From the IMG/VR virus record IMGVR_UViG_3300029288_004137, positions 1 through 64,000 of that record: DNA of 64,000 nt, one strand, 5' to 3'. Below are positions 34,880 through 57,931 of this stretch, piece by piece (position 1 is the first letter of the stretch; every line of letters begins with the position of its first letter). The notes beneath the pieces are model-generated. The model searched no databases. It saw only the letters and a program-made list of their open reading frames with translations, and was not told the DNA's origin. The position numbers and the translations under genes are program-made. The stretch is from a virus (Duplodnaviria; Caudoviricetes).

Positions 34880-35155
34880 ATGAATATCAATTCTATATGC
34901 GAACATATCGCAATATGTGTTAATTCAATCAATTATAATCAAAAAGTTGAAGTGTCTGTTACAGCAGATGAATTAAAAAATCTGATAACAATGGATATAA
35001 TCAATAAAAAACATTTTATTAAATTCAATAAAATACATACTGGACCTGTAAGCATACGTTTTTATGCAACAATGCTTATATCAAACTTATATGAAGATAT
35101 TATCGTTGACGGTAATGATGTTATTATTGTTGTTTCTAAATTGGATGAAAAGTAA
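34880..35155 (+). CDS. hypothetical protein
   Basis: ORF with SD. Confidence 0.6.
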   Translation: MNINSICEHIAICVNSINYNQKVEVSVTADELKNLITMDIINKKHFIKFNKIHTGPVSIRFYATMLISNLYEDIIVDGNDVIIVVSKLDEK

Positions 35156-35313
35156 TGAACACAAGATACGAACTTATTAATCTTATTAAAGAACTTAATC
35201 ATTATGGTGCCAATATTCATATTGAAAAAGATCTTAACAATAATAATCAAAAACCTATTTTAAATAAAAAAGAAGATACAGTTGAATGGATTAATAAAAT
35301 TGAACTTGATTAA
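35155..35313 (+). pseudogene. repeat-deleted paralog of ankyrin gene 35327-35974 (52 aa)
   Basis: MNTRYELINLIKELNHYGANIHIEKDLNNNNQKPILNKKEDTVEWINKIELD: similar N-cap, identical C-tail, no repeats. Confidence 0.65.
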
Positions 35314-35326
35314 AAGGAAAAAAATA

Positions 35327-35974
35327 ATGAGTATTAAAGAAAAAAATATTTTCAATATGAGCACAAAATACGGACTTGTTAATCTTATTAAAGATCTTAA
35401 TGATTATGGTAACAATATTCAGTATGATCATGGTTATGCTTTACAATTGGCAGCACGACTTGGTCGTCTTGATATGGTTAAATATCTGATTGATATTGGT
35501 GCTGATATTCATGTTTTGAATGATTATGCTTTACGATGGGCAGCATCAAAAGGTTATCTTGATCTGATTAAATATCTGGTTGAAAATGGTGCTGATATTC
35601 ATACTGAAAATGATTATGCTTTACAATTGGCAGCACAACTTGGTCGTCTTGATATGATTAAATATCTGGTTGAAAATGGTGCAAATATTCATACTTATGA
35701 TGATTCTGTTTTACAATATGCAGCACTAAATGGACATCTTGATATGGTTAAATATCTGGTTGAAAATGGTGCTAATATTCATGCTGAAAATAATAAAGCT
35801 TTAAAATGGGCAGCTGAAAAAGGTCATTATGATATTGTTGAATATCTTAAAGATTTTAATAACAATAAACTTATTGAGGAAAGTAAAGAAGATCTTAACA
35901 ATAATAATCAAAAACCTATTTTAAATAAAAAAGAAGATACAGTTGAATGGATTAATAAAATTGAACTTGATTAA
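35327..35974 (+). CDS. ankyrin-repeat protein
   Basis: About five 30-aa repeats ALxxAA..G.LD.VKYLVE.GA.IH; start moved to the SD-preceded ATG. Confidence 0.9.
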   Translation: MSIKEKNIFNMSTKYGLVNLIKDLNDYGNNIQYDHGYALQLAARLGRLDMVKYLIDIGADIHVLNDYALRWAASKGYLDLIKYLVENGADIHTENDYALQLAAQLGRLDMIKYLVENGANIHTYDDSVLQYAALNGHLDMVKYLVENGANIHAENNKALKWAAEKGHYDIVEYLKDFNNNKLIEESKEDLNNNNQKPILNKKEDTVEWINKIELD

Positions 35975-35990
35975 AAGGAAAAGAAAAGTA

Positions 35991-36413
35991 ATGAATAAAC
36001 ATACTGACATTGAAACTCAATTCAATGCTACTCTTGAATATGCAGTACGACAAAATTATTTTGATGCTGTCAAATTTCTTGTTGAAAATAATACTAATAA
36101 TTATAACTTTAATACTGCACTTTTATATGCAGCAATTTATTGTGATCTTGATGTTGTCAAATATCTGGTTGAACATGGTGCTGATATTCATTCTGATGAT
36201 GAACATATTTTGCGAATCGCAGTGAAATATGAGCGTTTTAATATTGTTAAATATTGTATTGAACAAGGTGCTAATGTTCATGTAAGGAATGATGAAACAT
36301 TACGATGGGCAAAGAAACGGGGTAATGATAAAATTATTAAATATCTTTCTATTCAAGGTGATAAATATCTTTGTAGAGAAATTGATCTTGAAGATAATCC
36401 AAAACTTAACTAA
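35991..36413 (+). CDS. ankyrin-repeat protein
   Basis: [15 protein letters not shown]; start moved. Confidence 0.85.
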   Translation: MNKHTDIETQFNATLEYAVRQNYFDAVKFLVENNTNNYNFNTALLYAAIYCDLDVVKYLVEHGADIHSDDEHILRIAVKYERFNIVKYCIEQGANVHVRNDETLRWAKKRGNDKIIKYLSIQGDKYLCREIDLEDNPKLN

Positions 36414-36838: not shown

Positions 36839-37144
36839 TTGATGGAACAAATATATACAGACCATGAAATGGAACAAATGTATAAAGACTATGATCTAGG
36901 CATGGCATCATATTATAATAAGATCGAATCTGTTATACAATTAATTAATGATGGTGCTAATTATCATGTTGATAATGATTATCCCTTAAGAGTTGCATCA
37001 ATTTATGGTAATTTTGATATTGTCAAATATTTAATTCCTTTGTATAATAATAAAGAAGAATTAAAAACATTGTTTTTTAGAGTTAATAACTTTTATGTTA
37101 AATATCTAATTTTGGAAAGATTATATGAATTACAAAAATTCTAG
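36839..37144 (+). CDS. ankyrin-repeat protein with conserved LILERLY tail
   Basis: One repeat plus tail. Confidence 0.8.
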   Translation: MMEQIYTDHEMEQMYKDYDLGMASYYNKIESVIQLINDGANYHVDNDYPLRVASIYGNFDIVKYLIPLYNNKEELKTLFFRVNNFYVKYLILERLYELQKF

Positions 37145-37667
37145 ATTTATTGAAGCAGTTAAAACTAATAATTTTCAGCAAGTTAAAGAATGTATTGAAG
37201 AAGGTATAGATATTCATGCTGACAAGGATTACGCTTTACGATATGCAGCAGAACGTGGTCACTTTGATATGGTTAAATATTTAGTTGAAAATGGTGCTGA
37301 TATTCATGCTTGTTATGATGCTGCTTTTAGATTTTCAGCGGAGAATAATCATTTAAATGTTGTCAAATATCTTGTTGAAAATGGTGCTGATATTCATAAT
37401 GATGATAATAATGTTATACGATTAGCAGCAGAATATGGATATTTCGAAATTGTTAAATATTTAATGGAAAAAGGTACTTATAATTATGCTGACAACAATT
37501 GTATTTTAGAATATGCAATAGAATTTAAACATTTTGATATTATTAGATATTTAATTCCTTTATATTCTAAATCGGAATTAAAAGAATTGTTTTTAAAAAT
37601 TAATAATTTCTGTGTCAAATGTTTGATATTGGAAAGGTTATATAATGGATCTTTTTGTTGCAATTAG
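37125..37667 (+). CDS. ankyrin-repeat protein with LILERLY tail
   Basis: About four repeats plus tail. Confidence 0.9.
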   Translation: MNYKNSRFIEAVKTNNFQQVKECIEEGIDIHADKDYALRYAAERGHFDMVKYLVENGADIHACYDAAFRFSAENNHLNVVKYLVENGADIHNDDNNVIRLAAEYGYFEIVKYLMEKGTYNYADNNCILEYAIEFKHFDIIRYLIPLYSKSELKELFLKINNFCVKCLILERLYNGSFCCN

Positions 37668-38070
37668 AAGAAACGATCTTCAGCAAGTTAAAGAATGTAT
37701 TAAACATGATGTTAATATTCATTATGATAAAGGTAATGCTTTACGATATGCAGTAGATAATGGTTGTTTTGAAATTGTTAAATATCTGGTTGAATATGGC
37801 ACTGATATTCATATTTGGAATGATTATCCTTTACGAATTGCAGCACTTTATGGTTATTCTGATATTGTTAAATATCTTGTTGAGCATGGTGCTGATATTC
37901 ATGCTGATAATGATTATGCTTTACGATGGGCAGCAAATAAGGGTCATTTTGATATTGTTAAATATTTAATTCCTTTGTATAATAATAAAGAAGAATTAAA
38001 AACATTGTTTTTTAGAGTTAATAACTTTTATACTAAATTCTTAATTTTAGAACAATTATATGGAACTTAA
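37645..38070 (+). CDS. ankyrin-repeat protein with LILE tail
   Basis: About three repeats plus tail. Confidence 0.9.
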   Translation: MDLFVAIRRNDLQQVKECIKHDVNIHYDKGNALRYAVDNGCFEIVKYLVEYGTDIHIWNDYPLRIAALYGYSDIVKYLVEHGADIHADNDYALRWAANKGHFDIVKYLIPLYNNKEELKTLFFRVNNFYTKFLILEQLYGT

Positions 38071-38076
38071 TTAAAA

Positions 38077-38448
38077 ATGAAAAAACTTTTATTTTCTATA
38101 ACCAAAAAAGATTTAGAATTTGATTATTTTTCTGGTACTGGAAATGGTGGGCAAAACAGAAATAAACACCAAAAATGTGTTAGGTGCAAACATCCACCTT
38201 CTGGTGCAGTAGGAATAGGACAAAATACTAGGTCTTTAGAACAAAATAAAAGAGATGCTTTTTTAAACATGACGAACAATAAATTATTTAAAGATTGGAT
38301 GAAAATAAAAATTGCTAAGTTTACTGTATCTGTTAAAGATATCCCTATAGAAGATGTTGTAAATGAATCAATGAAAGAAGAAAACATTAAGATAGAAATC
38401 CATGATGAAGATGGTAATTGGATCGAGGTTAAAGACATAAAAAAATAA
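38077..38448 (+). CDS. stand-alone GGQ peptidyl-tRNA hydrolase / release-factor domain (ArfB/PrfH-like)
   Basis: SGTGNGGQNRNK..VR..H.PSG..RS..QNK..A. Confidence 0.85.
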   Translation: MKKLLFSITKKDLEFDYFSGTGNGGQNRNKHQKCVRCKHPPSGAVGIGQNTRSLEQNKRDAFLNMTNNKLFKDWMKIKIAKFTVSVKDIPIEDVVNESMKEENIKIEIHDEDGNWIEVKDIKK

Positions 38449-38451
38449 ATC

Positions 38452-38480
38452 TTGACTTTTGATCCAATTTTTGATATTAT
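38452..38480 (+). promoter_or_regulatory. sigma70 promoter
   Basis: TTGACT-17-TATTAT. Confidence 0.7.
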
Positions 38481-38514
38481 AAGTATATAAAATAAAAAAT
38501 CAGAAAGGAACATT

Positions 38515-38892
38515 ATGAAATTCGAGAACGCAATAACAAAACTGGAAAGACTTGGTTATAAAACTGAAAAGAACACTTATGGTATTTATTCATTTGTAGT
38601 GAATAACCATACTATTTCTTTTTTTAAAGTTATTGGAAAAGGTACCGTAGATAAACCTACAGTAACTTATCCAATAGAATCAGACAAACAACCAAAAAGA
38701 TTCTCTTCTCTAATGGCAGCAATTAGAGAATGTGGAGGAGTTGCTACCCTTAAAGAACTCAATGAACTTCAAAAAAAGCAAAAAATTGCTTCTCTTAATA
38801 ACGTTGAAGCTCTACGAAGAAAAGCAGATAAGATAGATGAAAACAAAAAAGAAGAATTTGTTAATAAAATTCTTGAACTACGTAACTCATAA
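38515..38892 (+). CDS. hypothetical protein
   Basis: ORF with SD. Confidence 0.65.
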   Translation: MKFENAITKLERLGYKTEKNTYGIYSFVVNNHTISFFKVIGKGTVDKPTVTYPIESDKQPKRFSSLMAAIRECGGVATLKELNELQKKQKIASLNNVEALRRKADKIDENKKEEFVNKILELRNS

Positions 38893-38914
38893 AGTATAAA
38901 GGAGAATATAAATT

Positions 38915-40174
38915 ATGGCTGTTGGAATTACATTTAAAACTCTTGAAAAAATTGTTTTCCCAATTGTAAAGGCTAAACATCCTATCCTCATTCGTGGTAG
39001 GCATGGAATTGGTAAATCTGAAGTTGTTTATCAATTTGCAAATCAACTTTATTTTGATGAAAATGGAGAAATGCAAACCTTAATAGGACTTTCAGAAGAA
39101 AGTGCTAAAGAAAAGATATCTTCATTAAAAGAAAAAAACATCAACATAGGTTTAAAAGTTGTTGAAAGAAGAGCATCTCAAATGACAGAAGGAGATCTTA
39201 TGGGACTTCCTGTTTCAAAAGAAAATTCCACTACGTGGAATCCTCCTGATTGGTTCAAAGAAGCATGTGATTATCCGGTTGTTTTGTTTTTAGATGAAAT
39301 CGATAGAGCAGTTCTCGAAGTAAGACAAGGCATCTTTGAATTGACTGATTCAAGAAAACTTAATGGATGCAAATTACATCCTCAAACAATCATTTTCGCA
39401 GCAGTAAATGGTGGTAATCATGGAAGTATGTATCAAATTTCTGAGATGGAGCCAGCAGAACTTGATAGATGGACAACTTTTGATTTAGAGCCCAGTGTAG
39501 AAGATTGGGTAGAATGGGCAAGAAAGAAAGGAAATGTCCATAAATATATTATCGATTTCATTATCGGAAATCCTAAACGGCTTGAGTTCGATGGTGAACA
39601 TGAACCAAATAAAAAATATCCATCAAGAAGAAGTTGGGTTAGAGCTAGTTCTACATTAGTTGCATCGGATCTCTTCTCTTGGGAAGATAAAGCAAGTTTG
39701 GAACAACTTGATACAATCCTTTATATTACACAAGGATTCATTGGTACTGAAATCGGGTTTGATTTCAGAGATTATTGTGCAAATATCAAAGGTCAAGTAA
39801 CTCTTGAAGAAGTTCTTGATAAGGGTAAACTTGATAGAGTTAAAGATTGGGAGATAACTGAACACTCAACCTTTGTTGATAAAATTATCAACTCGAATCT
39901 TATTGAATCTGCGTTGACAAAAAAACAATTGAAAAATTGGGCAGAATATATCGCTATTCTACCAGCAGAAGTTGCAGTACATTTTTTCTCTGTTCTTACA
40001 ACACAAAAAACTACTTCTGAAATAGTTCAGAATAATGTTTTTAATCTCTATAGCCAAAATACTAAAGGTGAAAGAAATATAAGAACAATTATATCAAATC
40101 ACTTCGTAGATCAAATCGCTTCTAAAGAAAAATCTACCTCTGAAGGAGAAACAAATGAAAAAGAAAATGGTTGA
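38915..40174 (+). CDS. MoxR-like AAA+ ATPase
   Basis: GRHGIGKS, LFLDEIDRA, AAVN, DRW, PSRRSW. Confidence 0.9.
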   Translation: MAVGITFKTLEKIVFPIVKAKHPILIRGRHGIGKSEVVYQFANQLYFDENGEMQTLIGLSEESAKEKISSLKEKNINIGLKVVERRASQMTEGDLMGLPVSKENSTTWNPPDWFKEACDYPVVLFLDEIDRAVLEVRQGIFELTDSRKLNGCKLHPQTIIFAAVNGGNHGSMYQISEMEPAELDRWTTFDLEPSVEDWVEWARKKGNVHKYIIDFIIGNPKRLEFDGEHEPNKKYPSRRSWVRASSTLVASDLFSWEDKASLEQLDTILYITQGFIGTEIGFDFRDYCANIKGQVTLEEVLDKGKLDRVKDWEITEHSTFVDKIINSNLIESALTKKQLKNWAEYIAILPAEVAVHFFSVLTTQKTTSEIVQNNVFNLYSQNTKGERNIRTIISNHFVDQIASKEKSTSEGETNEKENG

Positions 40175-40355
40175 AAACTATAACGATCTTCCGAAAGATT
40201 GTCCTTTGTGTAAAAAATCCCTTAAAGGACATAGAATCCCTGAATCAGTTAAAAAATTATTTGACAATGCAGAATTCTATAACACTGTATGGACACTATA
40301 TAATAATGGAGATCTTGTATATAAATGTCCTTCCTGTAATTTCATTTGGAAGTAA
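40155..40355 (+). CDS. zinc-ribbon protein
   Basis: CPLC..YKCPSC..W. Confidence 0.65.
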   Translation: MKKKMVENYNDLPKDCPLCKKSLKGHRIPESVKKLFDNAEFYNTVWTLYNNGDLVYKCPSCNFIWK

Positions 40356-40364
40356 AGGAGAAAA

Positions 40365-40544
40365 ATGAATAATAATTTTAATAATTTTCCTAATTTGTGC
40401 CCTTCATGTGGATATGTCTTAATAAAAGATGAAATCTCTGAATCAGATAAGAAATTACTTGATACAGTTGAATCACTATATAAAGTAGGAGATCCTGTAT
40501 ATAAATGTCCAAAATGTAAGTCCATTTGGATTATTTGGAAATAA
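40365..40544 (+). CDS. zinc-ribbon protein, paralog of 40155
   Basis: Manual translation CPSC..GDPVYKCPKCKSIW; AGGAG SD. Confidence 0.65.
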   Translation: MNNNFNNFPNLCPSCGYVLIKDEISESDKKLLDTVESLYKVGDPVYKCPKCKSIWIIWK

Positions 40545-40549
40545 AATAA

Positions 40550-41083
40550 ATGGACTTTTTGATAAATTGGGTATGTGTGTTTTTTCTTTTCCTTTCTGAT
40601 TGGCATGGTGTATGTTATATAAATTCTAATTCAAAAATCTGTAAAAATATTGATATACCAACTATCTTTCAATATACATCAATTATATTAAAAGAAACAA
40701 ATATTTATAATGATATAAATCCATTAGTAGTAGCTGCAATAATTTGGCATGAAAGCCATTTGAATCCAAAAGCGATTGGTCCTAATAAAAAAGACATAGG
40801 ACTTATGCAAATCTCTTATATTTGGGTTAAAGAAACAAAAAATGATTTAAAAAATCCTGAAATAAATATAAAAGTTGGTATATCAATATTAAATTATTGG
40901 AAAAATGAAAGAACAAAATCACATTCAAAAAACTACTTAGCACATTATGCAGCAGGTAATTCCCCAGAAAAAAAACATTTTCTTTTTCAAAAAAAAATTA
41001 TTAATAAAGCAAAAAAATTTAATATAAAAGAACAAATTTATGTCAATGTTAACAAACTTAGAAAAAAGAACCCAAGAAATTAA
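40550..41083 (+). CDS. lytic transglycosylase (SLT)
   Basis: AAIIWHES.LNPKA..GLMQI..NPEINI..G. Confidence 0.85.
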   Translation: MDFLINWVCVFFLFLSDWHGVCYINSNSKICKNIDIPTIFQYTSIILKETNIYNDINPLVVAAIIWHESHLNPKAIGPNKKDIGLMQISYIWVKETKNDLKNPEINIKVGISILNYWKNERTKSHSKNYLAHYAAGNSPEKKHFLFQKKIINKAKKFNIKEQIYVNVNKLRKKNPRN

Positions 41084-41378
41084 TCTAGCTACAAAATTGC
41101 TTGATTGTATTTATACAAATGATACAAAAAACTTCTCAGAACTCATAGAAGACAATATAGAAATTATTAAAAAAAATCTTTATTTTGAAGTCTTTTCAAA
41201 ATGTTTAAAACTTTCATTTCTTCTTGAAAAAACAGAAATATTATATATATTTATGAAATATAATATAAAAGAATTTTTCCATAAATATCCACATCAAAAA
41301 AAAATGATTGGAGACGCTGCTTTTAAAACAAAAAATACAGAATGTATATATATTTTTTTATCTATGTTCTTTGGTTAA
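41040..41378 (+). CDS. hypothetical protein
   Basis: ORF. Confidence 0.5.
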   Translation: MSMLTNLEKRTQEINLATKLLDCIYTNDTKNFSELIEDNIEIIKKNLYFEVFSKCLKLSFLLEKTEILYIFMKYNIKEFFHKYPHQKKMIGDAAFKTKNTECIYIFLSMFFG

Positions 41379-41387
41379 AAAAAAATC

Positions 41388-41416
41388 TTGACTTTTTCCC
41401 AAAATAATGATATTCT
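41388..41416 (+). promoter_or_regulatory. sigma70 promoter for the vWA gene and ankyrin array
   Basis: TTGACT-17-TATTCT. Confidence 0.65.
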
Positions 41417-41445
41417 ATTAACAGACAAACAAAAAAAGTGTAAAA

Positions 41446-42915
41446 ATGAAAAATATTAAAAAAGAATCAAATTTTATTCTTGATGATCATATTGCTTCTG
41501 CTTTAAAAGATGAAGAATTCTTTAGATGTCTATCTTTAAGAATTAACAAAAGAATTGATTATACAATCCCCACTGCTGGAGTGAGAATTGATAAGAGAAC
41601 AATGAACTTTGTTCTTGCATACAATCCGCTTTTTCTAGAATTATTAACTCAAGAAGAAGTTAGAGCAGTCCTTTCTCATGAATTTCTTCATATTTCTCTT
41701 GGACATGTTACTAAAGAAATAGTACATGAAAAAACACGTAATAATTTTATTGCTTTACATCATAAAAGAAATATAGCATTTGACTTATCAATAAATACAC
41801 ATTTGAAAAATTTTCCAGAAACAATAAAAATCCCAGATGCTAATGGAAAAGAAAAAATTGGATATAGTTGCATTCCTGGAAAAAATCAATATATTGATCT
41901 CCCTAAAAATTTAACATCAGATCAATATTTTTCTCTCCTACCTGATCCAGTTTGCATTTTTTCAAAATTGTTAAAAAATGCAGACAAGAATGGTCAGAAT
42001 GATCAAAGTGGTGAGAATGGCGAAAATAATCAAAATGGTAAAGGTAGTGAAGGTAGTGAAGGTAGTGAAGGTAGTGAAGGTAGTGAAGGTAGTGAAGGTA
42101 GTGAAGGTAGTGAAGGTAGTGAAGGCAGTGAAGGCAAAGACTCTCAGGGTTCTTCTGGAGATGATAAAGCACCTGCCTGTATTGGATGTGGAACTTGTTG
42201 TAATCAGGTTGGAGATCATGATTGGGGTGATTTGACTCAAGAAGAAAAAGAAATTCTTGAGAACAGAAGACTTCAAATTATTAGAAAAGCTGTGCAAGAT
42301 TCTAATTATAGATGGGGGACAATACCCAAAGAAGTCAGTGAAGAAATAATTAAACAAATTTCTAACAAAATTAACTGGAGATCTTTATTAAGATATTTTG
42401 TTAAATGTAATAGAAAAGCAGATAAAATTTCTTCTATTAAATCAATAAATAAAAGATTTCCGTATATTCATGCTGGAAAGAAAAGAACAAGAATGGCGAA
42501 TATTGCTGTTTCATTTGATGAATCTGGATCTGTAGATGATGAAATGTTGTCATTGTTTGCAGCAGAATTATCAAAACTTGTTCAAATAGCGTCATTTACT
42601 CTTATTCCATTTGACTATACAGTAGATGAAGAGAATATTTCTGTGTGGAAAAAGAATGATAAGTTCGAATTAAAAAGAACAAGGTCAGGTGGTACAAATT
42701 TTGATGCACCAACAGTTTATGTTAATGAACATAGAGAATTTGACGCTCATATAATTTTAACAGATTTAGAAGCTCCACAACCAACATTTTCAAAAGTACC
42801 TAGATTGTGGATAACTGATTCTGATCATGCAGAATCCCCTTATTTTAAACCTGAAAAAGAAAAGTTAATCGTAATAGAAAAAGATAAATGTATACAAATC
42901 TCTTTGAAGCAGTAA
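41446..42915 (+). CDS. DUF2201-type metallopeptidase plus vWA-like protein (MoxR partner)
   Basis: PTAGV, HEFLH, NIAFD.SIN; DESGS, GGTNF, LTD. Confidence 0.88.
   Translation: MKNIKKESNFILDDHIASALKDEEFFRCLSLRINKRIDYTIPTAGVRIDKRTMNFVLAYNPLFLELLTQEEVRAVLSHEFLHISLGHVTKEIVHEKTRNNFIALHHKRNIAFDLSINTHLKNFPETIKIPDANGKEKIGYSCIPGKNQYIDLPKNLTSDQYFSLLPDPVCIFSKLLKNADKNGQNDQSGENGENNQNGKGSEGSEGSEGSEGSEGSEGSEGSEGSEGSEGKDSQGSSGDDKAPACIGCGTCCNQVGDHDWGDLTQEEKEILENRRLQIIRKAVQDSNYRWGTIPKEVSEEIIKQISNKINWRSLLRYFVKCNRKADKISSIKSINKRFPYIHAGKKRTRMANIAVSFDESGSVDDEMLSLFAAELSKLVQIASFTLIPFDYTVDEENISVWKKNDKFELKRTRSGGTNFDAPTVYVNEHREFDAHIILTDLEAPQPTFSKVPRLWITDSDHAESPYFKPEKEKLIVIEKDKCIQISLKQ
42043..42132 (+). repeat. in-frame 9-bp tandem repeat (GGTAGTGAA)x10 encoding (GSE)10
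   Basis: Direct reading; last unit is GGC. Confidence 0.95.
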
Positions 42916-43142
42916 GGAATAACGACCTTCAACAAGTTAAAAGATCCATTGAAAATAATACTGATATTCATGCTGCTAATGATTATGCTTTAAGCTGGGC
43001 AGCATATTTCGAACATTTTGATATTGCTAAATATTTAATTTCTTGTTATTCTAATATAGAATTAAAAAAAATATTTTCTCAATTCAATAATTTTTATGTT
43101 AAATCCTTAATCTTGGAAAGGTTATATAATGGATCTCAATGA
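42888..43142 (+). CDS. ankyrin cassette
   Basis: N-cap, one repeat, LILERLYN tail. Confidence 0.85.
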   Translation: MYTNLFEAVRNNDLQQVKRSIENNTDIHAANDYALSWAAYFEHFDIAKYLISCYSNIELKKIFSQFNNFYVKSLILERLYNGSQ

Positions 43143-43680
43143 TAAAATTAGAAATGATAATCTCAATCTTTTTGATGCAGTTGAAAATAACAATCTCCAG
43201 AAAGTTAAAGAACTTGTTGAACTTGGTGCAGATATTCATGCTGATGATGATTGGTCTTTAAGACATGCAGCAGAACATGGTTATTTTTATATTATTAAAT
43301 ATCTTATTGATCTTGGTGCTGATATTCATACCAATAATGATTGGCCTTTAAGATATGCAGCAGAATTTGGTCGTCTTGATATTGTAAAATATTTAGTTGA
43401 ACATGGTGCTGATATTCATGCTTTTGATAATTGGACTTTAATATGGACAGCACAAAAAGGTTATTTCGATGTTGTCAAATATCTCATTGAACATGGTGCT
43501 GATATTCATATAGATAATGATTATCTTTTACGATGGATAGCAAAACATGGACATCTTGATGTTGTTAAATATTTAATTCCTTTATATAAAAAATCAGAAT
43601 TAAAAAATTTTTTTTCTCGAATTGATAGTTTTTATGTTAAATTTCTAATCTTAGAAAGGTTATATAATGACTCTTATTGA
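43129..43680 (+). CDS. ankyrin cassette
   Basis: About four repeats plus tail. Confidence 0.9.
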   Translation: MDLNDKIRNDNLNLFDAVENNNLQKVKELVELGADIHADDDWSLRHAAEHGYFYIIKYLIDLGADIHTNNDWPLRYAAEFGRLDIVKYLVEHGADIHAFDNWTLIWTAQKGYFDVVKYLIEHGADIHIDNDYLLRWIAKHGHLDVVKYLIPLYKKSELKNFFSRIDSFYVKFLILERLYNDSY

Positions 43681-44005
43681 TGCAATTAGTATAAACGACC
43701 TTCAACAAGTTAAAGAATGCATTGAAAATGGTGCTGATATTCATGCTCATGATGAGTATGCTTTAAAATATGCAGCAATGTATGGTTATTTGAATATTGT
43801 TAAATATCTTGTTGAGCATGGTGCTGATATTTATGCTCTTGATAATTATACTTTAAAATGGGCAACATATTTTGAACATTTTGATGTTATCAAATATTTA
43901 ATTTCTTTATATAATAAAGAAGAATTGAGAAAATATTTTTCTCAATTCAATTTTTTTTATATTAAATACTTAATCTTGGAAAGGTTATATGATAAGCCTC
44001 AATGA
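43667..44005 (+). CDS. ankyrin cassette
   Basis: About two repeats plus tail. Confidence 0.9.
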   Translation: MTLIDAISINDLQQVKECIENGADIHAHDEYALKYAAMYGYLNIVKYLVEHGADIYALDNYTLKWATYFEHFDVIKYLISLYNKEELRKYFSQFNFFYIKYLILERLYDKPQ

Positions 44006-44534
44006 AGCAGTTAGAAATAACGATCTTCAACAAGTTAAACGCATTGTTGATAGATACATTGTTGGTAATTTTTTGAATCGTAAAGATTTTTTTAATCAAA
44101 AAGATGAAGCTTTAATAATTGCATCAGATAATGGATATTTGGATATTGTTAAATATTTAGCTGAGCATAATGCTGATATCCATGCACATGATGATATTGC
44201 TTTACGGTGGGCAGTAGAAGGAAGTCATTTTGATGTTGTTAAATATCTGGTTGAACAAGGAATTAACATCCATCGAGATTGTGATGATATTATAACAAGT
44301 GCGGCAGGTCAAAAAAATCTTGAAATTCTCAAATATTTGGTTGAACATGGTGTTAATATTCACGCTTCTAATGATTATGCTATAGAGTATGCAGTAGAAA
44401 ATGATAGATTAGATAATTTTAAATATTTAATTTCTTTATTCACAAAAACAGAATTAATAAAATTACTCCTTCAATATAAAGGACTCTATATTAATTTTTT
44501 AATCTTGGAAAGGTTATATAATGGATCTTATTGA
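43989..44534 (+). CDS. ankyrin cassette
   Basis: About four repeats plus tail. Confidence 0.9.
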   Translation: MISLNEAVRNNDLQQVKRIVDRYIVGNFLNRKDFFNQKDEALIIASDNGYLDIVKYLAEHNADIHAHDDIALRWAVEGSHFDVVKYLVEQGINIHRDCDDIITSAAGQKNLEILKYLVEHGVNIHASNDYAIEYAVENDRLDNFKYLISLFTKTELIKLLLQYKGLYINFLILERLYNGSY

Positions 44535-44802
44535 TGCAGTAAGAAATAATAATTTTCAACAAATTAAATATCTTGTTGAGCATGGTGCTGATATTCGTAT
44601 TTGGAATGATTATCCTTTACGAATTGCATTAGATTATGATCATTTTGATATTGTTAAATATTTAATTTCTTATTATTCTGATACGGAATTAAAAACATTA
44701 TTTTCTTATTATTCTGAGATGGAATTAAAAAAATTAATTTCTCAAAGAAATAGTTTTTATGTTAAATTTTTAATCTTGGAAAGATTTTATGAAAAAAAAT
44801 GA
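44521..44802 (+). CDS. ankyrin cassette with duplicated tail segment
   Basis: SYYSDTELK / SYYSEMELK duplication. Confidence 0.85.
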   Translation: MDLIDAVRNNNFQQIKYLVEHGADIRIWNDYPLRIALDYDHFDIVKYLISYYSDTELKTLFSYYSEMELKKLISQRNSFYVKFLILERFYEKK

Positions 44803-45034
44803 TTTAATAATGATTAGCTTTAAACAATCTATTGGTCTTGGTCTTGCTGGTGTTTTTGCTTCAAATATAAAAAATACATCATCGCTTTTGATATCAAAAC
44901 CTAGGTATGTTATTTTTCTTCATATTGACAAAGGTACAATAAACAGAATAAAATATTTATATTTCTTTGATATTTTAACAAAAGAAAATTTTAAAATACC
45001 ACTTTATAAATCATTATTAATAAGGAAAAAATAA
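44789..45034 (+). CDS. non-ankyrin hypothetical inserted in the array
   Basis: Starts in the conserved junction. Confidence 0.5.
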   Translation: MKKNDLIMISFKQSIGLGLAGVFASNIKNTSSLLISKPRYVIFLHIDKGTINRIKYLYFFDILTKENFKIPLYKSLLIRKK

Positions 45035-45274
45035 ATGTATACAAGTCTTATGACCTATGGTTCTACAAAAAAAGAAGTACTCGATCTTCTTTTAAAACAA
45101 ATACCAAATTTATACGCAGAAATATCTATTAATCTTTTATGCCTTCAAGATCCACGAGCAACCCATTTGTCAGATTATGAAACAAGTTTGCGAAACAATT
45201 CACAAGTCACTTGGAAAGCTTCTTTAGATTATATTTATGAATTCTCAAAAGAAGAAAATAATGATAAATCATAA
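45035..45274 (+). CDS. non-ankyrin hypothetical inserted in the array
   Basis: SD AAGGA; followed by an orphan junction. Confidence 0.6.
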   Translation: MYTSLMTYGSTKKEVLDLLLKQIPNLYAEISINLLCLQDPRATHLSDYETSLRNNSQVTWKASLDYIYEFSKEENNDKS

Positions 45275-45335
45275 TCTAAACAATCTTCAATAAATAAATT
45301 TTATATCAAATGCTTAATCTTAGAAAGGTTATATA

Positions 45336-45596
45336 ATGAATCTCATTGAAGCAGTTGAAAATAATAATTTTCAGCAAGTTAAAGAATACATTAAATATGG
45401 CGCTGATATTCATATTGATAACAATTATGCTTTACGATATGCAGCACTAAATGGTTATATTAATATTGTTAAATATCTTATTAAATATGGTGCTGATATT
45501 CATGCTATTAATGATAATACCATAAATTGGATAACAGAATTTGGTCATTTTGATATTGTCAAATATTTTATTACTTTATATTCTGATACAGAATAA
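45336..45596 (+). pseudogene. ankyrin cassette with premature stop (TTA>TAA in ELK)
   Basis: GAA TAA AAA where paralogs have GAA TTA AAA; tail sequence retained to about 45660. Confidence 0.75.
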
Positions 45597-45660
45597 AAAG
45601 AATTAATTTTTAAACTTAATTCTTTTTATGTTAAATGCTTGATCTTAGAAAGGTTATATA

Positions 45661-46089
45661 ATGAATCTCATTGATGCAGTTGATAATAATGATATTCAAC
45701 AAGTTCAACATTTTGTTGAACAAGGTGATGATATTCATATTTATAATGATCTTGCTTTACGATTAGCAGCATTAAATGGTCATTTTGAAATTGTTAAATA
45801 TTGTATTGAAAATGGTGCTGATATTCATGCCGCTTATGATAATGCTTTACGAGGATCAGCAAAAAATGGACATTTTGATGTTGTTAAATATTGTATTGAA
45901 AATGGTGCTGATATTCTTGCTATTGATCATTATATAATGAGCATAGCTGTTAATAAAAATTATTTTGATGTTGTTAAATATTTAATTCCTTTATATCCAA
46001 TATCAGAATTAAAAGAATTGTTTTCTGAAATTGATAATTTCTATATCAAATTCTTAATCTTAGAAAGGATATTTAATGAATCTCAATGA
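45661..46089 (+). CDS. ankyrin cassette
   Basis: About three repeats plus tail. Confidence 0.9.
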
Positions 46090-46864
46090 AGCAATTATAA
46101 ATAACAATTTCCAGCAAGTTAAAGAATGTATTGAACATGGTGCTGATATCCATGCTCAAGATGAATATGCTTTAAAATATACAGCAATGTATGGTCATCT
46201 TGATATTGTTAAATATCTTGTTGAACTTGGTGCTGATATCCATGTTCAAGATAATCTTCCTTTAAGATACGCAGCAGAAAATGGACATCTTGATATTGTT
46301 AAATATCTGGTTGATCTTGGTGCTGATATTCATGCTCTTGACAATAGTGCTTTAAGATATGCAGCACCAAAAGGCCATTTTGAAATTGTTAAATATTTGG
46401 TTGACCTTGGTGCTGATATTCATGCTCAAGATGAATATGCTTTAAAATATACAGCAATGTATGGTTATTTGAATATTGTTAAATATCTGGTTGAACTTGG
46501 TGCTGATATTCATATTCAAAATGATATTACTTTAAGATATGCAGCGGAATTTGGATGGCTTAATATTGTTAAATATCTGGTTGAACTTGGTGCTAATATT
46601 TATGCTGCTGATGATTGTGCTTTACGATGGGCAGCAAAAAATGGACATCTTGATGTTGTTAAATATCTGGTTGATCTTGGCGCTAATATTCATGCTCAAA
46701 ACGATTATCCTTTACAATGGGCAGCAGGATTTGATCATTTTAATGTTGTTAAATATTTAATTCCTTTATATAAAAAATCAGAATTAAAAAAATTGTTTCC
46801 TTATATTGATAACTTCTATGCTAAATTCTTAATCTTGGAAAGATTATATAATGCAACTCAATGA
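46076..46864 (+). CDS. ankyrin cassette (longest)
   Basis: About seven repeats plus tail. Confidence 0.92.
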
Positions 46865-47378
46865 AGTGGTTGATAATAATGATTTTCAACAAATTAAAGA
46901 ATGTATTGAAAATGGTGCTGATATTCATTTTTGGAATGATTATGCTTTAAGAAGAACAGTAGAATATGGTCGTCTTGATGTTGTTAAATATTGTATTGAA
47001 CATAATGCTGACATTCATGTTTTAAGTGATCTTCCTTTACGATTAGCAGCATTAAATGGACATCTTGATATTGTTAAATATCTGGTTGAACATGGTGCTG
47101 ATATTCATATTTGGACTGATTGCCCTTTACGATTAGCAGCAGAATGTGGTTGTCTTGATGTTGTTAAATATTTTATTGAACTTGGTGCTGATATTCATGT
47201 TATTAATGATTACGCTTTAAGATATACAGTATATAATGAACATTTTGATGTTACTAAATACTTAATTTCTTTCTATTCTGATATAGAATTAAAAAAAATA
47301 TTTTCGCAGATCGATAATTTTTATATTAAATACTTAATTTTGGAAAGGTTATTTAATGAATCTCATAGATGCAGTTAA
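46851..47378 (+). CDS. ankyrin cassette
   Basis: About four repeats plus tail. Confidence 0.9.
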   Translation: MQLNEVVDNNDFQQIKECIENGADIHFWNDYALRRTVEYGRLDVVKYCIEHNADIHVLSDLPLRLAALNGHLDIVKYLVEHGADIHIWTDCPLRLAAECGCLDVVKYFIELGADIHVINDYALRYTVYNEHFDVTKYLISFYSDIELKKIFSQIDNFYIKYLILERLFNESHRCS

Positions 47379-47850
47379 TAATAATGATCTTCAACAAGTT
47401 AAATGTCTTGTTGAAAATGGTGCTGATATTCATGCTCAAGGTGATTGTGCTTTATGTCTTGCAGCAGAATATAGTCATCTTGATATTGTTAAATATCTTA
47501 TTGAACATGGTGCTGATATTCATGCAAATGCAGAACATGGACATCTTGATATGGTTAAATATCTTATTGAACATGGTGCTGATATTTATACTCTTAATGA
47601 TTGGCCTTTAAGATGGGCAGTAGAATATGGACATTTTGATGTTGTTAAATATTTGATTGAACATGGCGCTAATATTCGTATTTGGAATGATTATCCTTTA
47701 CGAATGGCATTAGATTATGATCATTTTGATATGGTAAAATATTTACTTTCTTATTATCCTGATACGGAATTAAAAAAATTGTTTTCTAAAACTGATAGTT
47801 TCTATGTTAAATTTCTAATCTTAGAAAGATTATACAATGAGTCTCATTGA
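47356..47850 (+). CDS. ankyrin cassette
   Basis: About four repeats (one internally deleted) plus tail. Confidence 0.9.
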   Translation: MNLIDAVNNNDLQQVKCLVENGADIHAQGDCALCLAAEYSHLDIVKYLIEHGADIHANAEHGHLDMVKYLIEHGADIYTLNDWPLRWAVEYGHFDVVKYLIEHGANIRIWNDYPLRMALDYDHFDMVKYLLSYYPDTELKKLFSKTDSFYVKFLILERLYNESH

Positions 47851-48184
47851 TGCAGTTTATAATAATGATCTTCAACAAGTTAAATGTCTTGTTGAAAATG
47901 GTGTTAATATTCATGTTGACAATGATATATCTTTAAGACATTCAGCACGACATGGTTATATTGATATTGTAAAATATCTTGTTGAGCATGGTGCTAATAT
48001 TCATACCGATAATGATGAGCCTTTATATTTTGCAGTATATTACAATCATTTTGATATTATCAAATATTTAATTTCTTTATATTCAATATCAGAATTAAAA
48101 GAATTAATTTTTAAATTTGATTCTTTTTATGTTAAATTCTTAATCTTAGAAAGGTTATATAATGAATCTTATAGATGCAGTTAA
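47837..48184 (+). CDS. ankyrin cassette
   Basis: About two repeats plus tail. Confidence 0.9.
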   Translation: MSLIDAVYNNDLQQVKCLVENGVNIHVDNDISLRHSARHGYIDIVKYLVEHGANIHTDNDEPLYFAVYYNHFDIIKYLISLYSISELKELIFKFDSFYVKFLILERLYNESYRCS

Positions 48185-48689
48185 TAACAATGATCTTCAA
48201 CAAATTAAATGTCTGGCTGAAAATGGTGCTGATATTCATTGTGAAAATGATTATGCTTTAAGAAGTGCAGCATATCTTGGACATCTTGATATTGTTAAAT
48301 ATCTGATTGAACATGGCGCTAATATTCACGTTCAAGATGAACTTCCTTTAAGATTTGCAGCATGTAATAATTATTTTGATATGGTTAAATATCTGGTTGA
48401 GCATAACGCTAATATTCACGTTCTTGATGATTATCCTTTACATTGGACAACAAAAAATGGATATTTTGATATTACTAAATATCTGATTGAACATGGTGCT
48501 AATATTTATGCTGAAAATGATAAAGCTTTAAAATGGGCAGCAGAATTTGGACATTTTGATATTGCTAAATATTTAATCTCTTGTTATAAAGAATCAGAAT
48601 TAAAAAAATTGTTTTCTAAAACTGATAGTTTCTATGTTAAATTCTTAATTTTAGAAAGGTTATATAATGAATCTCATAGATGCAGTTGA
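48162..48689 (+). CDS. ankyrin cassette
   Basis: About four repeats plus tail. Confidence 0.9.
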   Translation: MNLIDAVNNNDLQQIKCLAENGADIHCENDYALRSAAYLGHLDIVKYLIEHGANIHVQDELPLRFAACNNYFDMVKYLVEHNANIHVLDDYPLHWTTKNGYFDITKYLIEHGANIYAENDKALKWAAEFGHFDIAKYLISCYKESELKKLFSKTDSFYVKFLILERLYNESHRCS

Positions 48690-49014
48690 TAATAATGATC
48701 TTCAACAAGTTAAATGTTTGGTTGAAAATGATGCTGATATTCATGTTTATTATGAAGAACCTTTACGATTGGCAGTATATAATAATTATTTTGATATTGT
48801 TAAATATCTGGTTGAGCACGGCGCTAATATTCGTGCCAGTTGTGATTGGCCATTAAAATGGGCGTTTCAGTATGGTTATTTTAATATTGTTAAATATTTG
48901 ATTTCTTGTTATAAAAAATTTGAATTAAAAGAATTGTTTTCTGAAATCAATAGTTTTTATATTAAATACTTAATATTAGAAAGGTTATATAATGAATCTT
49001 TATGTTGCAATTAA
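48667..49014 (+). CDS. ankyrin cassette
   Basis: About two repeats plus tail. Confidence 0.9.
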   Translation: MNLIDAVDNNDLQQVKCLVENDADIHVYYEEPLRLAVYNNYFDIVKYLVEHGANIRASCDWPLKWAFQYGYFNIVKYLISCYKKFELKELFSEINSFYIKYLILERLYNESLCCN

Positions 49015-49333
49015 AAAAAACGATCTTCAAAATGTTAAAAAATATCTTAAAGAAGAAAATGAAAATAATTATAATTTAATTCTACGATATGCAATATTAT
49101 ATGGTAATCTTGGTATTATTAAATATCTGATTGAAAATGGTGCCAATATTCATACTAGTATTGATTATCCTTTAAGACATGCAGCAAAACGTGGTTATTT
49201 TGATGTTGTTAAATATTTGATTTCTTGTTATTCCGATATAGAATTAAAAACATTATTATTTGAAGTTGATAACTTCTATGTTAAATTCTTAATTTTAGAA
49301 TTTTTTCAGAAAAAATTTTCAAAAAATATTTGA
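48992..49333 (+). CDS. ankyrin cassette (last of array)
   Basis: About two repeats; tail diverges after LILE and the AAAGG SD is lost. Confidence 0.88.
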   Translation: MNLYVAIKKNDLQNVKKYLKEENENNYNLILRYAILYGNLGIIKYLIENGANIHTSIDYPLRHAAKRGYFDVVKYLISCYSDIELKTLLFEVDNFYVKFLILEFFQKKFSKNI

Positions 49334-49387: not shown

Positions 49388-49627
49388 TGCAAAATACGTG
49401 CCAACCGTCTAGGTGTACCTAGTACCGGGGGGGTGTCTCATTATACCACATTGCTTTTCACTTGTCAAGAAAAATCGACATGGCATAGTTATTGCATATT
49501 GCTTTTTATTGTCATTGTTCCTTCACTGTTTATGCTCTAAGCATACCATACCTCGAAATGATTGTCAAGAAAAATCGACATGGCATGGTGATTGCATACT
49601 GAAGATGTATATGCAATCACCGTGCCA
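49388..49627. promoter_or_regulatory. four sigma54 -24/-12 consensus boxes
   Basis: 49388-49403(-) TGGCACGTATTTTGCA; 49481-49496(+) TGGCATAGTTATTGCA; 49581-49596(+) TGGCATGGTGATTGCA; 49612-49627(-) TGGCACGGTGATTGCA. Confidence 0.75.
49440..49468 (-). promoter_or_regulatory. perfect sigma70 promoter firing toward the end of the ankyrin array
   Basis: TTGACA-17-TATAAT with TGn extension. Confidence 0.8.
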
Positions 49628-57740: not shown

Positions 57741-57931
57741 AAGTTAAAAATAGAATTCAAGGATAATCACATGTATTTATTAACGATTTTCATCTTTTTT
57801 CACACTCATATAAGATTTGAAAAAGTATCAACTTCAGAAAACAATTTTTTTAATTCTATATCAGAATAATAAGGAATAAAAATGTAAATCTTATATCTGC
57901 AAGGATTATCCTTGAATTCTATTTTTAACTT
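57741..57931 (-). ncRNA. long-stem structured RNA A (28-bp perfect IR) carrying ankyrin-tail sequence in a loop
   Basis: Arms 57741-57768/57904-57931; inner stem 57808-57818/57886-57896; homologous to 63597-63866; strand inferred from the homolog. Confidence 0.65.

What the first reader, a model, noticed from the sequence alone, without database searches (positions are those of the whole stretch)
36839..49333. Cassette-like array of about 17 ankyrin genes joined by a conserved junction that is both coding tail and next-gene RBS
Each unit has an N-cap (MNLIDAV.NNDLQQVK), 1-7 repeats of 30 aa with variable positions, and a tail Y...ELK.LF.....[13 protein letters not shown]. The tail DNA (TTAATCTTAGAAAGGTTATATAATG) supplies the SD and ATG of the next unit. 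Two unrelated genes (44789, 45035) sit inside the array, and an orphan junction follows them (about 45295-45338). The junction also persists after the nonsense mutation in 45336, and its SD is lost at the last unit. This suggests the junction is a recombination/expression module that generates a DARPin-like binder repertoire, possibly anti-defence or active on a eukaryotic associate. The repeats resemble giant-virus ankyrins.
Basis: partly seen in the sequence, partly recalled or inferred. Interest (0 to 1): 0.75.

Follow-up and report, generated by a model that had tools for sequence, protein, structure and literature searches.

The report
Overlapping ankyrin gene family in phage
A 210-kb uncultured T4-like phage carries 23 back-to-back genes for small ankyrin "binder" proteins, each of which ends in a conserved cap whose codons also form the ribosome site and start of the next gene; the layout is real and unusual in size for a phage, but the shared joint looks like ordinary translational coupling, not a special recombination device.

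Summary
The range 36839-49333 holds 17 paralogous ankyrin genes, and the 209,974-bp genome holds 23. Each has an N-cap, 1-7 repeats of 30 aa and a conserved tail. The 25-nt junction occurs 14 times in the window against 0 expected.

The AlphaFold model shows the tail as a fourth helix pair, so it is a C-terminal capping repeat. Its Glu-Arg codons (GAA AGG) act as the Shine-Dalgarno site, and the next gene's ATG sits in its Tyr-Asn codons. AGG is used at that Arg in 13 of 16 genes, against 9.6% genome-wide (p = 3e-11). The motif is gone in the three units with no overlapping downstream start.

The "recombination module" reading has no specific support:
- The junction is no better conserved than the repeat framework (0.80 vs 0.81).
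- Its synonymous sites are not frozen.
- Mosaicism is as strong inside the tail as across the junction.
- The genome has no integrase, resolvase or reverse transcriptase.

Orphan junction relics and a foreign two-gene insert keep whole-gene shuffling plausible.

Variable residues sit at DARPin-type binding positions. No tail-bearing relative was retrievable, and the nearest phages lack the family. This scan noted analogous overlapping-junction arrays, of another protein family, in other T4-type phages.

The parts
36839..37144 (+). Unit 1: one repeat plus tail. It lacks the N-cap. Its 5' end holds two degenerate junction relics (GGAACAAAT[A/G]TAT).
37125..37667 (+). Unit 2: 4 repeats. Its start overlaps the tail of unit 1.
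37645..38070 (+). Unit 3: 3 repeats, end of the first sub-array. The tail reads LILEQLYGT, the Shine-Dalgarno motif is lost, and no downstream start overlaps.
38077..42915 (+). Interruption of the array by unrelated genes: RF-1-domain protein, AAA ATPase (phrog_1297), small zinc-ribbon-like ORFs, SLT transglycosylase and a DUF2201 metallopeptidase/VWA protein.
42888..43142 (+). Unit 4: 1 repeat, the minimal unit at 84 aa.
43129..43680 (+). Unit 5: 4 repeats.
43667..44005 (+). Unit 6: 2 repeats.
43989..44534 (+). Unit 7: 4 repeats with an insertion in the N-cap. A variant differing by one residue exists on a separate 2446-bp metagenome contig that also carries gene 45035.
44521..44802 (+). Unit 8: 1 repeat, with a 12-aa duplication inside the tail. 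Its junction feeds the non-ankyrin gene 44789.
44789..45274 (+). Two unrelated small ORFs (44789-45034 and 45035-45274) with no Pfam match. They occupy the place of a unit body, between a junction on the left and an orphan tail on the right.
45289..45338 (+). Orphan tail remnant (..[18 protein letters not shown]). It carries a perfect junction that serves gene 45336.
45336..45674 (+). Unit 9: 2 repeats. An in-frame TAA at 45594-45596 replaces the Leu of ELK, and the rest of the tail and the junction remain intact in frame.
45661..46089 (+). Unit 10: 3 repeats.
46076..46864 (+). Unit 11: 7 repeats, including an internal duplication at a 270-nt (3-repeat) offset with a 45-nt exact match.
46851..47378 (+). 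Unit 12: 4 repeats.
47356..47850 (+). Unit 13: 3 full repeats plus one shortened by 8 residues, an in-frame deletion between repeats.
47837..48184 (+). Unit 14: 2 repeats. This is the modelled unit: 8 helices, with the tail as the fourth helix pair (C-cap).
48162..48689 (+). Unit 15: 4 repeats.
48667..49014 (+). Unit 16: 2 repeats.
48992..49333 (+). Unit 17, the last: 2 repeats with a divergent N-cap. The tail ends LILEFFQKKFSKNI, the Shine-Dalgarno motif and ATG are lost, and no gene follows.

Best explanation
This is a lineage-specific multigene family of small cytoplasmic ankyrin-repeat proteins, amplified in tandem in a T4-like phage of about 210 kb.

Architecture. Each protein is a self-contained solenoid: an N-terminal capping helix pair, 1-7 internal repeats of 30 residues, and a C-terminal capping repeat, which is the 'tail'.

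The junction. It is the last helix of that C-cap (..[13 protein letters not shown]). Its Glu-Arg codons, GAA AGG, serve as the Shine-Dalgarno site for the next gene. The next gene's ATG sits in the Tyr-Asn codons, so neighbouring genes overlap by about 10-20 nt. They are read from one transcript with coupled translation (inferred).

Why it is conserved. Protein fold plus selection on the Shine-Dalgarno site and the ATG explain the conservation. No dedicated DNA element is needed.

How it varies. Gene number and repeat number change through ordinary homologous (UvsX/RecA-type) unequal recombination and gene conversion (inferred). Any conserved stretch can serve as substrate: repeat framework, caps or junction. 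Copies that keep the junction survive because it carries their ribosome site.

Likely function. Sequence variation is concentrated on the canonical ankyrin binding face. The family is therefore most likely a set of binders against different host or competitor proteins inside the infected cell, for takeover or anti-defence. That last step is inference.
For: Family and fold:
- Pfam Ank_2, E = 1e-65.
- AlphaFold2 model with pLDDT 95.5 and 8 helices. The tail forms helices 84-93 and 97-113.
- Best fold matches are designed ankyrins and DARPins, TM about 0.62.
- In register, the tail aligns as a degenerate repeat: ELK matches ALR and FYVKFLILE matches DIVKYLVEH.

Shine-Dalgarno site and start:
- AGG at the LILER Arg in 13/16 genes, against 9.6% genome-wide and 1/62 at other Arg codons of these genes, p = 2.6e-11.
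- The genome uses such sites: AGG occurs upstream of 50% of starts against 6% background, with a G peak at -12 to -8.
- All 20 junctions with an overlapping start keep a purine-rich motif. The 3 without one (37645, 48992, 76394) have lost it.
- The same junction also feeds non-ankyrin genes: 44789, the gene after 70210, and the ORF after 110399, which begins MKFINLHVHSNFS and was read by eye as the start of DnaE.

No special DNA constraint:
- Pairwise identity is 0.80 for the core and 0.81 for the repeat framework.
- Synonymous homozygosity is 0.69 for the core, 0.80 for the tail and 0.84 for the repeat.
- There is no conserved RNA fold, -3 kcal/mol.

Recombination is general:
- Mosaic segments.
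- Internal duplications at 90-nt and 270-nt offsets.
- A RecA/UvsX homologue is present. No integrase, resolvase or reverse transcriptase is found.

Binding face: entropy peaks at repeat positions 1, 3, 7, 10, 11, 23, 29 and 30. pN/pS is 1.4 there against 0.55 in the framework.
Against: - No expression, translation or binding data exist.
- The host is unknown.
- The pN/pS values are uncorrected and near saturation.
- Orphan junction relics precede every dispersed sub-array, and a foreign two-gene insert lies between two junctions. Both could mean the junction is a preferred breakpoint, which the internal tests here lack the power to exclude.
- The strain comparison that would settle this could not be run.
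Confidence: 0.68

Rival explanations
1. Junction-centred cassette shuffling. The conserved block of tail, junction and N-cap is the preferred crossover site, so whole genes are gained, lost, reordered or replaced at the joint. This would be the coding-sequence counterpart of PeSL-mediated modular shuffling in T4-type phages, and it would make the array an evolvable binder library.
For: - Orphan junction relics lie directly upstream of each sub-array's first gene: 45289-45338, 70666-70639(-), about 75665-75690, about 111700-111672(-), and 36842-36900.
- Two unrelated ORFs sit between a junction and an orphan tail.
- High-identity tracts of about 140 nt span tail, junction and N-cap in the 47356-48992 cluster.
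- A metagenome fragment, P0023/P0026, is 88% identical to the tail of 110829. It diverges from the LILER position onward and runs into a different downstream reading.
- PeSL precedent in T4-type phages (PMC2839356).
- Earlier scan notes describe gene swaps at overlapping junctions in other T4-type phages. These are unchecked leads.
Against: - The core is no more conserved than the repeat framework, and its synonymous sites vary.
- Four-gamete incompatibility across the core (0.63-0.70) is not above that within the tail (0.64).
- Exact matches across the junction reach at most 33 nt, while longer ones lie in tails, N-caps and repeats.
- The right breakpoint of the foreign insert lies 25 nt upstream of the core, not in it.
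- The relics are equally explained by selection to keep the ribosome site.
- The 2446-bp variant contig carries both gene 43989 and gene 45035, as here.
Confidence: 0.2
2. Eukaryote-directed effectors. The proteins would act on a eukaryotic associate of the bacterial host, like ankyphage ANKp, phage WO ankyrins or secretion-system ankyrin effectors, with the tail as an export signal.
For: - Ankyrin repeats are typical of bacterium-eukaryote interfaces.
- The repeat type, with its 30-aa period, has a named Megavirus hit among otherwise unnamed metagenome proteins.
- Ankyphage ANKs are known (bioRxiv 10.1101/608950).
Against: - There is no room for a signal peptide. Residue 1 onward is the folded N-cap at pLDDT of about 97, whereas two ankyphage ANKs carry N-terminal signal peptides.
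- The tail is a folded cap, and the residues after LYN are dictated by the next gene's N-cap and vary.
- The tail has no F-box or PRANC match.
Confidence: 0.07
3. Neutral or selfish amplification. The array would be decaying duplicated DNA without function.
For: - One unit carries a nonsense codon.
- There are relics and a truncated repeat.
Against: - 22 of 23 ORFs are intact.
- Framework pN/pS is 0.55.
- Selection on AGG at the junction is strong.
- The caps fold with high confidence.
Confidence: 0.05

Closest known systems
Translationally coupled overlapping genes of phages and bacteria (Shine-Dalgarno site and start codon inside the upstream coding sequence)
   Same: The downstream ATG lies 8-20 nt before the upstream stop. 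The Shine-Dalgarno motif sits inside the upstream ORF at -8/-9. The genes are tightly packed on one strand.
   Different: Here the same overlap is inherited by about 20 paralogous junctions, and its Shine-Dalgarno motif is written in two conserved structural residues (Glu-Arg) of a capping helix.
PeSL (promoter-early stem-loop) cassettes of T4-type phage hyperplastic regions (Arbiol et al. 2010, PMC2839356; Comeau et al. 2014, PMC4122927)
   Same: A short motif with an expression function is repeated between non-essential genes of a T4-type phage, and it could serve as homology for modular shuffling.
   Different: The junction here is coding, with no sigma-70 promoter and no stem-loop terminator. 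Shuffling at it has not been demonstrated.
Designed ankyrin repeat proteins (DARPins; e.g. PDB 1n0q, 5ma8)
   Same: N-cap, a few internal repeats and a C-cap. The framework is conserved and a handful of surface positions vary. These are the best fold matches.
   Different: This is a natural family. The period is 30 rather than 33 residues, with a shorter beta-turn. The C-cap has a long final helix and its own sequence. Binding is untested.
Viral ankyrin multigene families: poxvirus ANK/PRANC host-range genes and Mimiviridae ankyrin paralogues
   Same: A large paralogous ankyrin family in variable genome regions of a large DNA virus, with a variable repeat number and a conserved C-terminal module.
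   Different: The host is presumably bacterial, since the genome uses Shine-Dalgarno sites. The C-terminal module is a capping repeat with no F-box or PRANC match. The genes overlap.
Ankyphage ANKp (Jahn et al., bioRxiv 10.1101/608950) and phage WO ankyrin genes
   Same: Phage-encoded ankyrin-repeat auxiliary genes.
   Different: The ankyphage ANKs are reported with N-terminal signal peptides. Here there are 23 tail-bearing paralogues with no signal peptide, in a T4-like lytic-type genome.

Membership tests
Ankyrin repeat superfamily (Pfam Ank_2 PF12796, Ank PF00023) | Profile match above the curated cut-off | tested here: met
   Ank_2 scores 218.5 and 101.8 bits against a cut-off of 27.3.
Ankyrin repeat superfamily (Pfam Ank_2 PF12796, Ank PF00023) | Stacked helix-turn-helix repeat solenoid | tested here: met
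   AlphaFold2 model with pLDDT 95.5 and four stacked helix pairs. Foldseek matches ankyrin structures.
Ankyrin repeat superfamily (Pfam Ank_2 PF12796, Ank PF00023) | Typical 33-residue period | tested here: not met
   The period is 30 residues in all internal repeats, 41 of them in register genome-wide. This is a short-loop variant, not grounds for exclusion.
DARPin-like capped binder architecture | Dedicated N- and C-terminal capping repeats around the internal repeats | tested here: met
   Helices 3-8 and 12-20 form the N-cap, and helices 84-93 and 97-113 form the C-cap.
DARPin-like capped binder architecture | Variation confined to the beta-turn and first-helix surface positions | tested here: met
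   Entropy is at least 2.3 bits at positions 1, 3, 7, 10, 11, 23 and 30, and 2.0 bits at position 29. Most framework positions are below 1.5 bits.
DARPin-like capped binder architecture | Specific target binding | not testable with these tools
   This needs pull-down or two-hybrid experiments.
Translationally coupled overlapping genes | The downstream start overlaps the upstream coding end, with a Shine-Dalgarno site inside the upstream ORF | tested here: met
   20 of 23 junctions. AGG bias p = 2.6e-11. Spacing matches the genome-wide G peak.
Translationally coupled overlapping genes | Downstream translation depends on upstream translation | not testable with these tools
   This needs reporter fusions or ribosome profiling.
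PeSL cassettes (T4-type phages) | A strong sigma-70-like early promoter within the motif | tested here: not met
   Promoter-like sites number 110 against 128 expected, and none recurs at the junction.
PeSL cassettes (T4-type phages) | A stem-loop terminator within the motif | tested here: not met
   The consensus fold is -2.98 kcal/mol with no covariation.
PeSL cassettes (T4-type phages) | Indels and replacements between close relatives bounded by the motif | tested here: inconclusive
   No relative DNA was retrievable. Only relics inside this genome were seen.
Poxvirus-type ANK/PRANC (F-box-like) proteins | A C-terminal PRANC or F-box-like domain | tested here: not met
   Four tails gave no Pfam match at E up to 10. 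The tail profile gave no meaningful match among solved structures.
Ankyphage ANKp | An N-terminal signal peptide, implying secretion | tested here: not met
   Residues 1-20 form the folded N-cap at pLDDT of about 97. The feature is reported for two ankyphage ANKs.
Integron-like or DGR-like diversification systems | A cognate integrase or resolvase, or a reverse transcriptase | tested here: not met
   PF00589, PF00239 and PF00078 are absent from the complete 210-kb record, and the control genomes gave matches.

The most novel reading that the evidence does not exclude
The array is a natural phage-borne 'DARPin library'. It would be a set of more than 20 co-expressed capped ankyrin binders with diversified binding faces, directed at host defence or takeover targets. 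Whole genes would be exchanged, lost and captured at the dual-function joint of C-cap codons, ribosome site and start codon. On this reading the joint is the coding-sequence equivalent of T4 PeSL cassettes and lets the repertoire turn over quickly between strains.
Probability: 0.2. Interest if true: 0.75.

Novelty: new variant of a known kind. Interest (0 to 1): 0.52.

Why it matters
Ankyrin genes in phages have so far been discussed as single, secreted, eukaryote-directed factors. Here a T4-like phage devotes about 10 kb, roughly 5% of its genome, to 23 capped and probably cytoplasmic ankyrin proteins whose variation sits on the binding face. This points to a family of intracellular binders used against the bacterial host.

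If their targets are defence or core host proteins, the family would give a set of natural inhibitors built as small, stable scaffolds. The array is also a clean natural case of a structural peptide whose codons double as the ribosome site and start of the next gene. It can be used to test how dual coding constrains codon choice, and whether such joints guide gene shuffling in T4-type phages.

Tried and rejected
Searches for relatives that carry the tail found nothing retrievable outside this genome:
- The junction pattern in viral contigs gave 37 single chance hits and no arrays.
- The tail profile found only repeat-level matches in viral contigs. It found nothing in metagenome contigs or genome contigs.
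- A degenerate tail DNA pattern in metagenome contigs gave 6 chance hits in non-coding context.
- The tail profile against 1.84 billion representatives found only this genome's proteins, spurious repeat translations and a weak repeat-only ankyrin hit, plus one fragment, P0023.
- megablast against phage records found nothing.
- Capsid relatives reach at most 55% identity, and five long ones have no such ankyrin genes.
The 2446-bp, 1146-bp and 752-bp contigs and the 209,843-bp assembly therefore could not be fetched.

Readings tested and dropped:
- Tail as an F-box, PRANC or other known domain.
- An RNA hairpin hiding the ribosome site.
- A promoter or terminator in the joint.
- An integron-like or DGR-like mechanism.
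- Tail as a secretion signal. It is a folded cap and its extreme C-terminus is variable.

Tests that lacked power:
- Mantel tests of segment co-inheritance were underpowered. N-cap against own tail gave r = 0.21, and against the neighbour's tail r = 0.01; neither was significant.
- Exact look-ups of many unit proteins failed because source gene calls differ.

Full report
**Context.** The window is the first 64 kb of a single 209,974-bp virus record with 27.7% G+C. The record has a T4-type major capsid gene (PF07068, E = 4e-59), a RecA/UvsX homologue, 12 tRNA genes in the window, a DNA ligase and several glycosyltransferases. The closest capsids in public phage records and IMG/VR are at most 55% identical. 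It is therefore a deep-branching T4-like phage with no close sequenced relative. Its genes use Shine-Dalgarno sites: AGG occurs upstream of 50% of starts against 6% background, and G peaks at -12 to -8.

**Observation.** The ORF list and translations show 17 paralogous ORFs in 36839-49333. Each has an N-terminal MNLIDAV.NNDLQQVK..VENGADIH module, 1-7 repeats of 30 residues, and a tail Y...ELK.LF.....[13 protein letters not shown]. Pfam calls them ankyrin repeats (Ank_2, E = 1e-65 and 3e-29). The 25-nt junction occurs 14 times at up to 3 mismatches, against 0 in 100 shuffles. The finer details hold:
- The TAA at 45594-45596 in gene 45336, with the tail continuing in frame.
- The two unrelated ORFs 44789 and 45035, followed by an orphan tail and junction at 45289-45338.
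- The lost motif in the last unit.

Three corrections are needed:
- The array is split by 4.8 kb of unrelated genes at 38077-42887.
- Unit 36839 has no N-cap.
- The family has six more members elsewhere in the genome, at 70210(-), 75687, 76394, 110399(-), 110829(-) and 111235(-). That makes 23 tail-bearing genes, plus tail-less ankyrin genes at 35282, 35943, 70691(-), 145317(-), 146571(-) and 160100(-).

**What the tail is.** An AlphaFold2 model of the 115-aa unit 47837, built on an alignment of 14 paralogues, has pLDDT 95.5. It shows eight helices in four stacked pairs: N-cap (3-8, 12-20), two repeats, and the tail (84-93, 97-113). Foldseek's best matches are designed ankyrin proteins and DARPins. 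Written in register, the tail is itself a degenerate repeat: ELK corresponds to ALR, and FYVKFLILE to DIVKYLVEH. The tail is therefore a C-terminal capping repeat. It has no match to any Pfam family, including F-box and PRANC, and none to solved structures by sequence.

**What the junction does.** In the cap's last helix, the codons for Glu-Arg read GAA AGG, and the next gene's ATG lies in the Tyr-Asn codons seven bases downstream. The upstream frame then runs on for 3-6 more codons, whose identity is dictated by the next gene's N-cap.

The Arg codon is AGG in 13 of 16 genes. AGG makes up 9.6% of Arg codons in long ORFs of this genome and 1 of 62 other Arg codons in these same genes (binomial p = 2.6e-11). 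All 20 junctions with an overlapping downstream start keep a purine-rich motif (GAAAGG, GAAAGA or GGAG..). The three units with no such start (37645, 48992, 76394) have lost it.

The same junction also serves non-ankyrin genes. These are 44789, the gene after 70210, and the ORF after 110399. That ORF begins MKFINLHVHSNFS, which I read by eye as the start of DnaE. The ribosome-site and start function is thus shown as far as sequence can show it. Actual coupling is inferred.

**Is the junction a recombination device?** Several tests bear on this.
- *DNA conservation.* Mean pairwise identity of the 25-nt core is 0.80, the same as the framework half of the internal repeats (0.81).
- *Synonymous sites.* Codon homozygosity at conserved residues is 0.69 in the core, 0.80 in the rest of the tail and 0.84 in the last repeat. 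The core is not frozen at the DNA level beyond AGG and ATG.
- *Long exact matches.* The longest between units (72, 49, 47 and 45 nt) lie in tails, N-caps and repeats. Matches across the core reach at most 33 nt.
- *Mosaicism.* Four-gamete incompatibility between informative sites is 0.64 within the tail, 0.44 within the N-cap and 0.63-0.70 across the core. Mantel tests find no significant linkage either within a gene or across the joint. Histories are scrambled everywhere, or homoplasy is high, with no step at the junction.
- *Enzymes.* No tyrosine or serine recombinase and no reverse transcriptase is present. A RecA/UvsX homologue is present.
- *RNA and signals.* There is no conserved hairpin and no promoter or terminator at the joint, so it is not a PeSL.

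Some observations do fit whole-gene mobility with the joint:
- Junction relics lie just upstream of each dispersed sub-array.
- The two foreign ORFs sit between a junction and an orphan tail.
- In the 47356-48992 cluster, the block of tail, junction and N-cap is 85-100% identical over about 140 nt, while the repeat bodies are 55-75% identical.
- A metagenome fragment, P0023/P0026, is 88% identical to the tail of 110829 but departs from the LILER position onward.

Each of these is also expected if copies must keep their ribosome site to survive. Repeat-number change is clearly produced inside genes as well. Examples are duplications at 270-nt and 90-nt offsets, a repeat shortened by 8 residues, and a 12-aa duplication in one tail.

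**Binder repertoire.** Across 41 internal repeats, entropy exceeds 2.3 bits at positions 1, 3, 7, 10, 11, 23 and 30 and is 2.0 bits at position 29. These are the beta-turn, the first helix face and the position equivalent to DARPin z26. Most framework positions are below 1.5 bits. Uncorrected pN/pS is 0.61/0.44 at the most variable positions and 0.17/0.31 in the framework. This fits diversification of the binding face, but it is not a rigorous test. The N-terminus is part of the folded cap, so there is no signal peptide. Two ankyphage ANKs, by contrast, do have one.

**Relatives.** No tail-bearing gene was retrieved from IMG/VR, JGI metagenomes or GTDB genomes. Among 1.84 billion protein representatives, the only ones outside this genome are short fragments of close variants. 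Five long contigs with the nearest capsids lack the family. Cluster look-ups reveal three things:
- A second assembly of 209,843 bp with single-residue variants.
- A 2446-bp contig that carries both a one-residue variant of gene 43989 and gene 45035.
- The P0023/P0026 fragment.

The repeat portion has many metagenomic homologues at 40-60% identity. Named ones include a Megavirus lba protein and a Burkholderia protein.

**Verdict.** The anatomy is real and the expression role of the junction is well supported. The tail is a capping repeat, and the family looks like a diversified set of intracellular binders. The claim that the junction is a dedicated recombination module is neither needed nor supported by the internal tests, though it is not excluded.

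Large ankyrin families are known in giant viruses and poxviruses, single ankyrin genes are known in phages, and translational coupling is commonplace. A 23-member capped and overlapping family in a T4-like phage appears undescribed (literature searches found none). Earlier notes of this scan describe analogous overlapping-junction arrays of an unrelated mini-protein in other T4-type phages, with swaps at the joint. I did not test those claims.

Noticed in passing
window 35155-36413: A second small ankyrin family has its own repeated joint. A 114-nt block at 35225-35338 recurs at 35886-35999 with 93% identity, and an N-terminal module at 35155 recurs at 35357 with 88% identity. ORF 35155-35313 looks like a 'zero-repeat' unit, with N-module and C-module but no ankyrin body.
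   Followed up: partly
window 57820-57880 (-): A tail fragment (..YYSDIELKKLFSEVDTF..) lies outside any ankyrin gene and lacks the LILERLYN core (nhmmer E = 2e-8). It sits in the non-coding RNA region that other reports of this scan describe.
   Followed up: partly
genome 110399-110425 (-), outside the window: The tail of ankyrin gene 110399 (..LILERLYEIH) overlaps the ATG of the next gene. That gene's product begins MKFINLHVHSNFS, which by eye looks like the start of the phage's split DnaE polymerase. An essential replication gene would then take its ribosome site from an ankyrin cap.
   Followed up: partly
window 41446-42915: The DUF2201 metallopeptidase/VWA protein carries a run of 9-nt tandem repeats, (GSE)n, at about 42041-42120. 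Its C-terminal codons (..KLIVIEKDKC, TTAATCGTAATAGAAAAAGATAAATG) loosely resemble the ankyrin junction just before unit 42888. This may be a relic or chance.
   Followed up: no
genome 70691-71122 (-), outside the window: A diverged ankyrin ORF upstream of 70210 ends ..SELLHLKFLILKKLNEKKISKK, a degenerate version of the tail. A separate orphan junction follows it at 70666-70639.
   Followed up: partly
window 38077-38448: A 123-aa RF-1-domain protein (Pfam PF00472, E = 2e-12; possibly a peptidyl-tRNA hydrolase of the ArfB type, which was not tested) sits in the gap between the ankyrin sub-arrays, next to an AAA ATPase and a VWA protein.
   Followed up: no
window 47387-47418 and 47868-47899: A 12-pair inverted repeat lies inside the N-cap coding sequence. 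CAACAAG...CTTGTTG encodes QQVKCLVE in units 47356 and 47837 only, and was flagged by the terminator scan on the minus strand. It is probably a by-product of the codons.
   Followed up: no
window 49440-49468 (-): A perfect sigma-70 consensus promoter (TTGACA, 17 nt, TGnTATAAT) lies on the minus strand about 100 nt after the end of the array, pointing back toward it.
   Followed up: no
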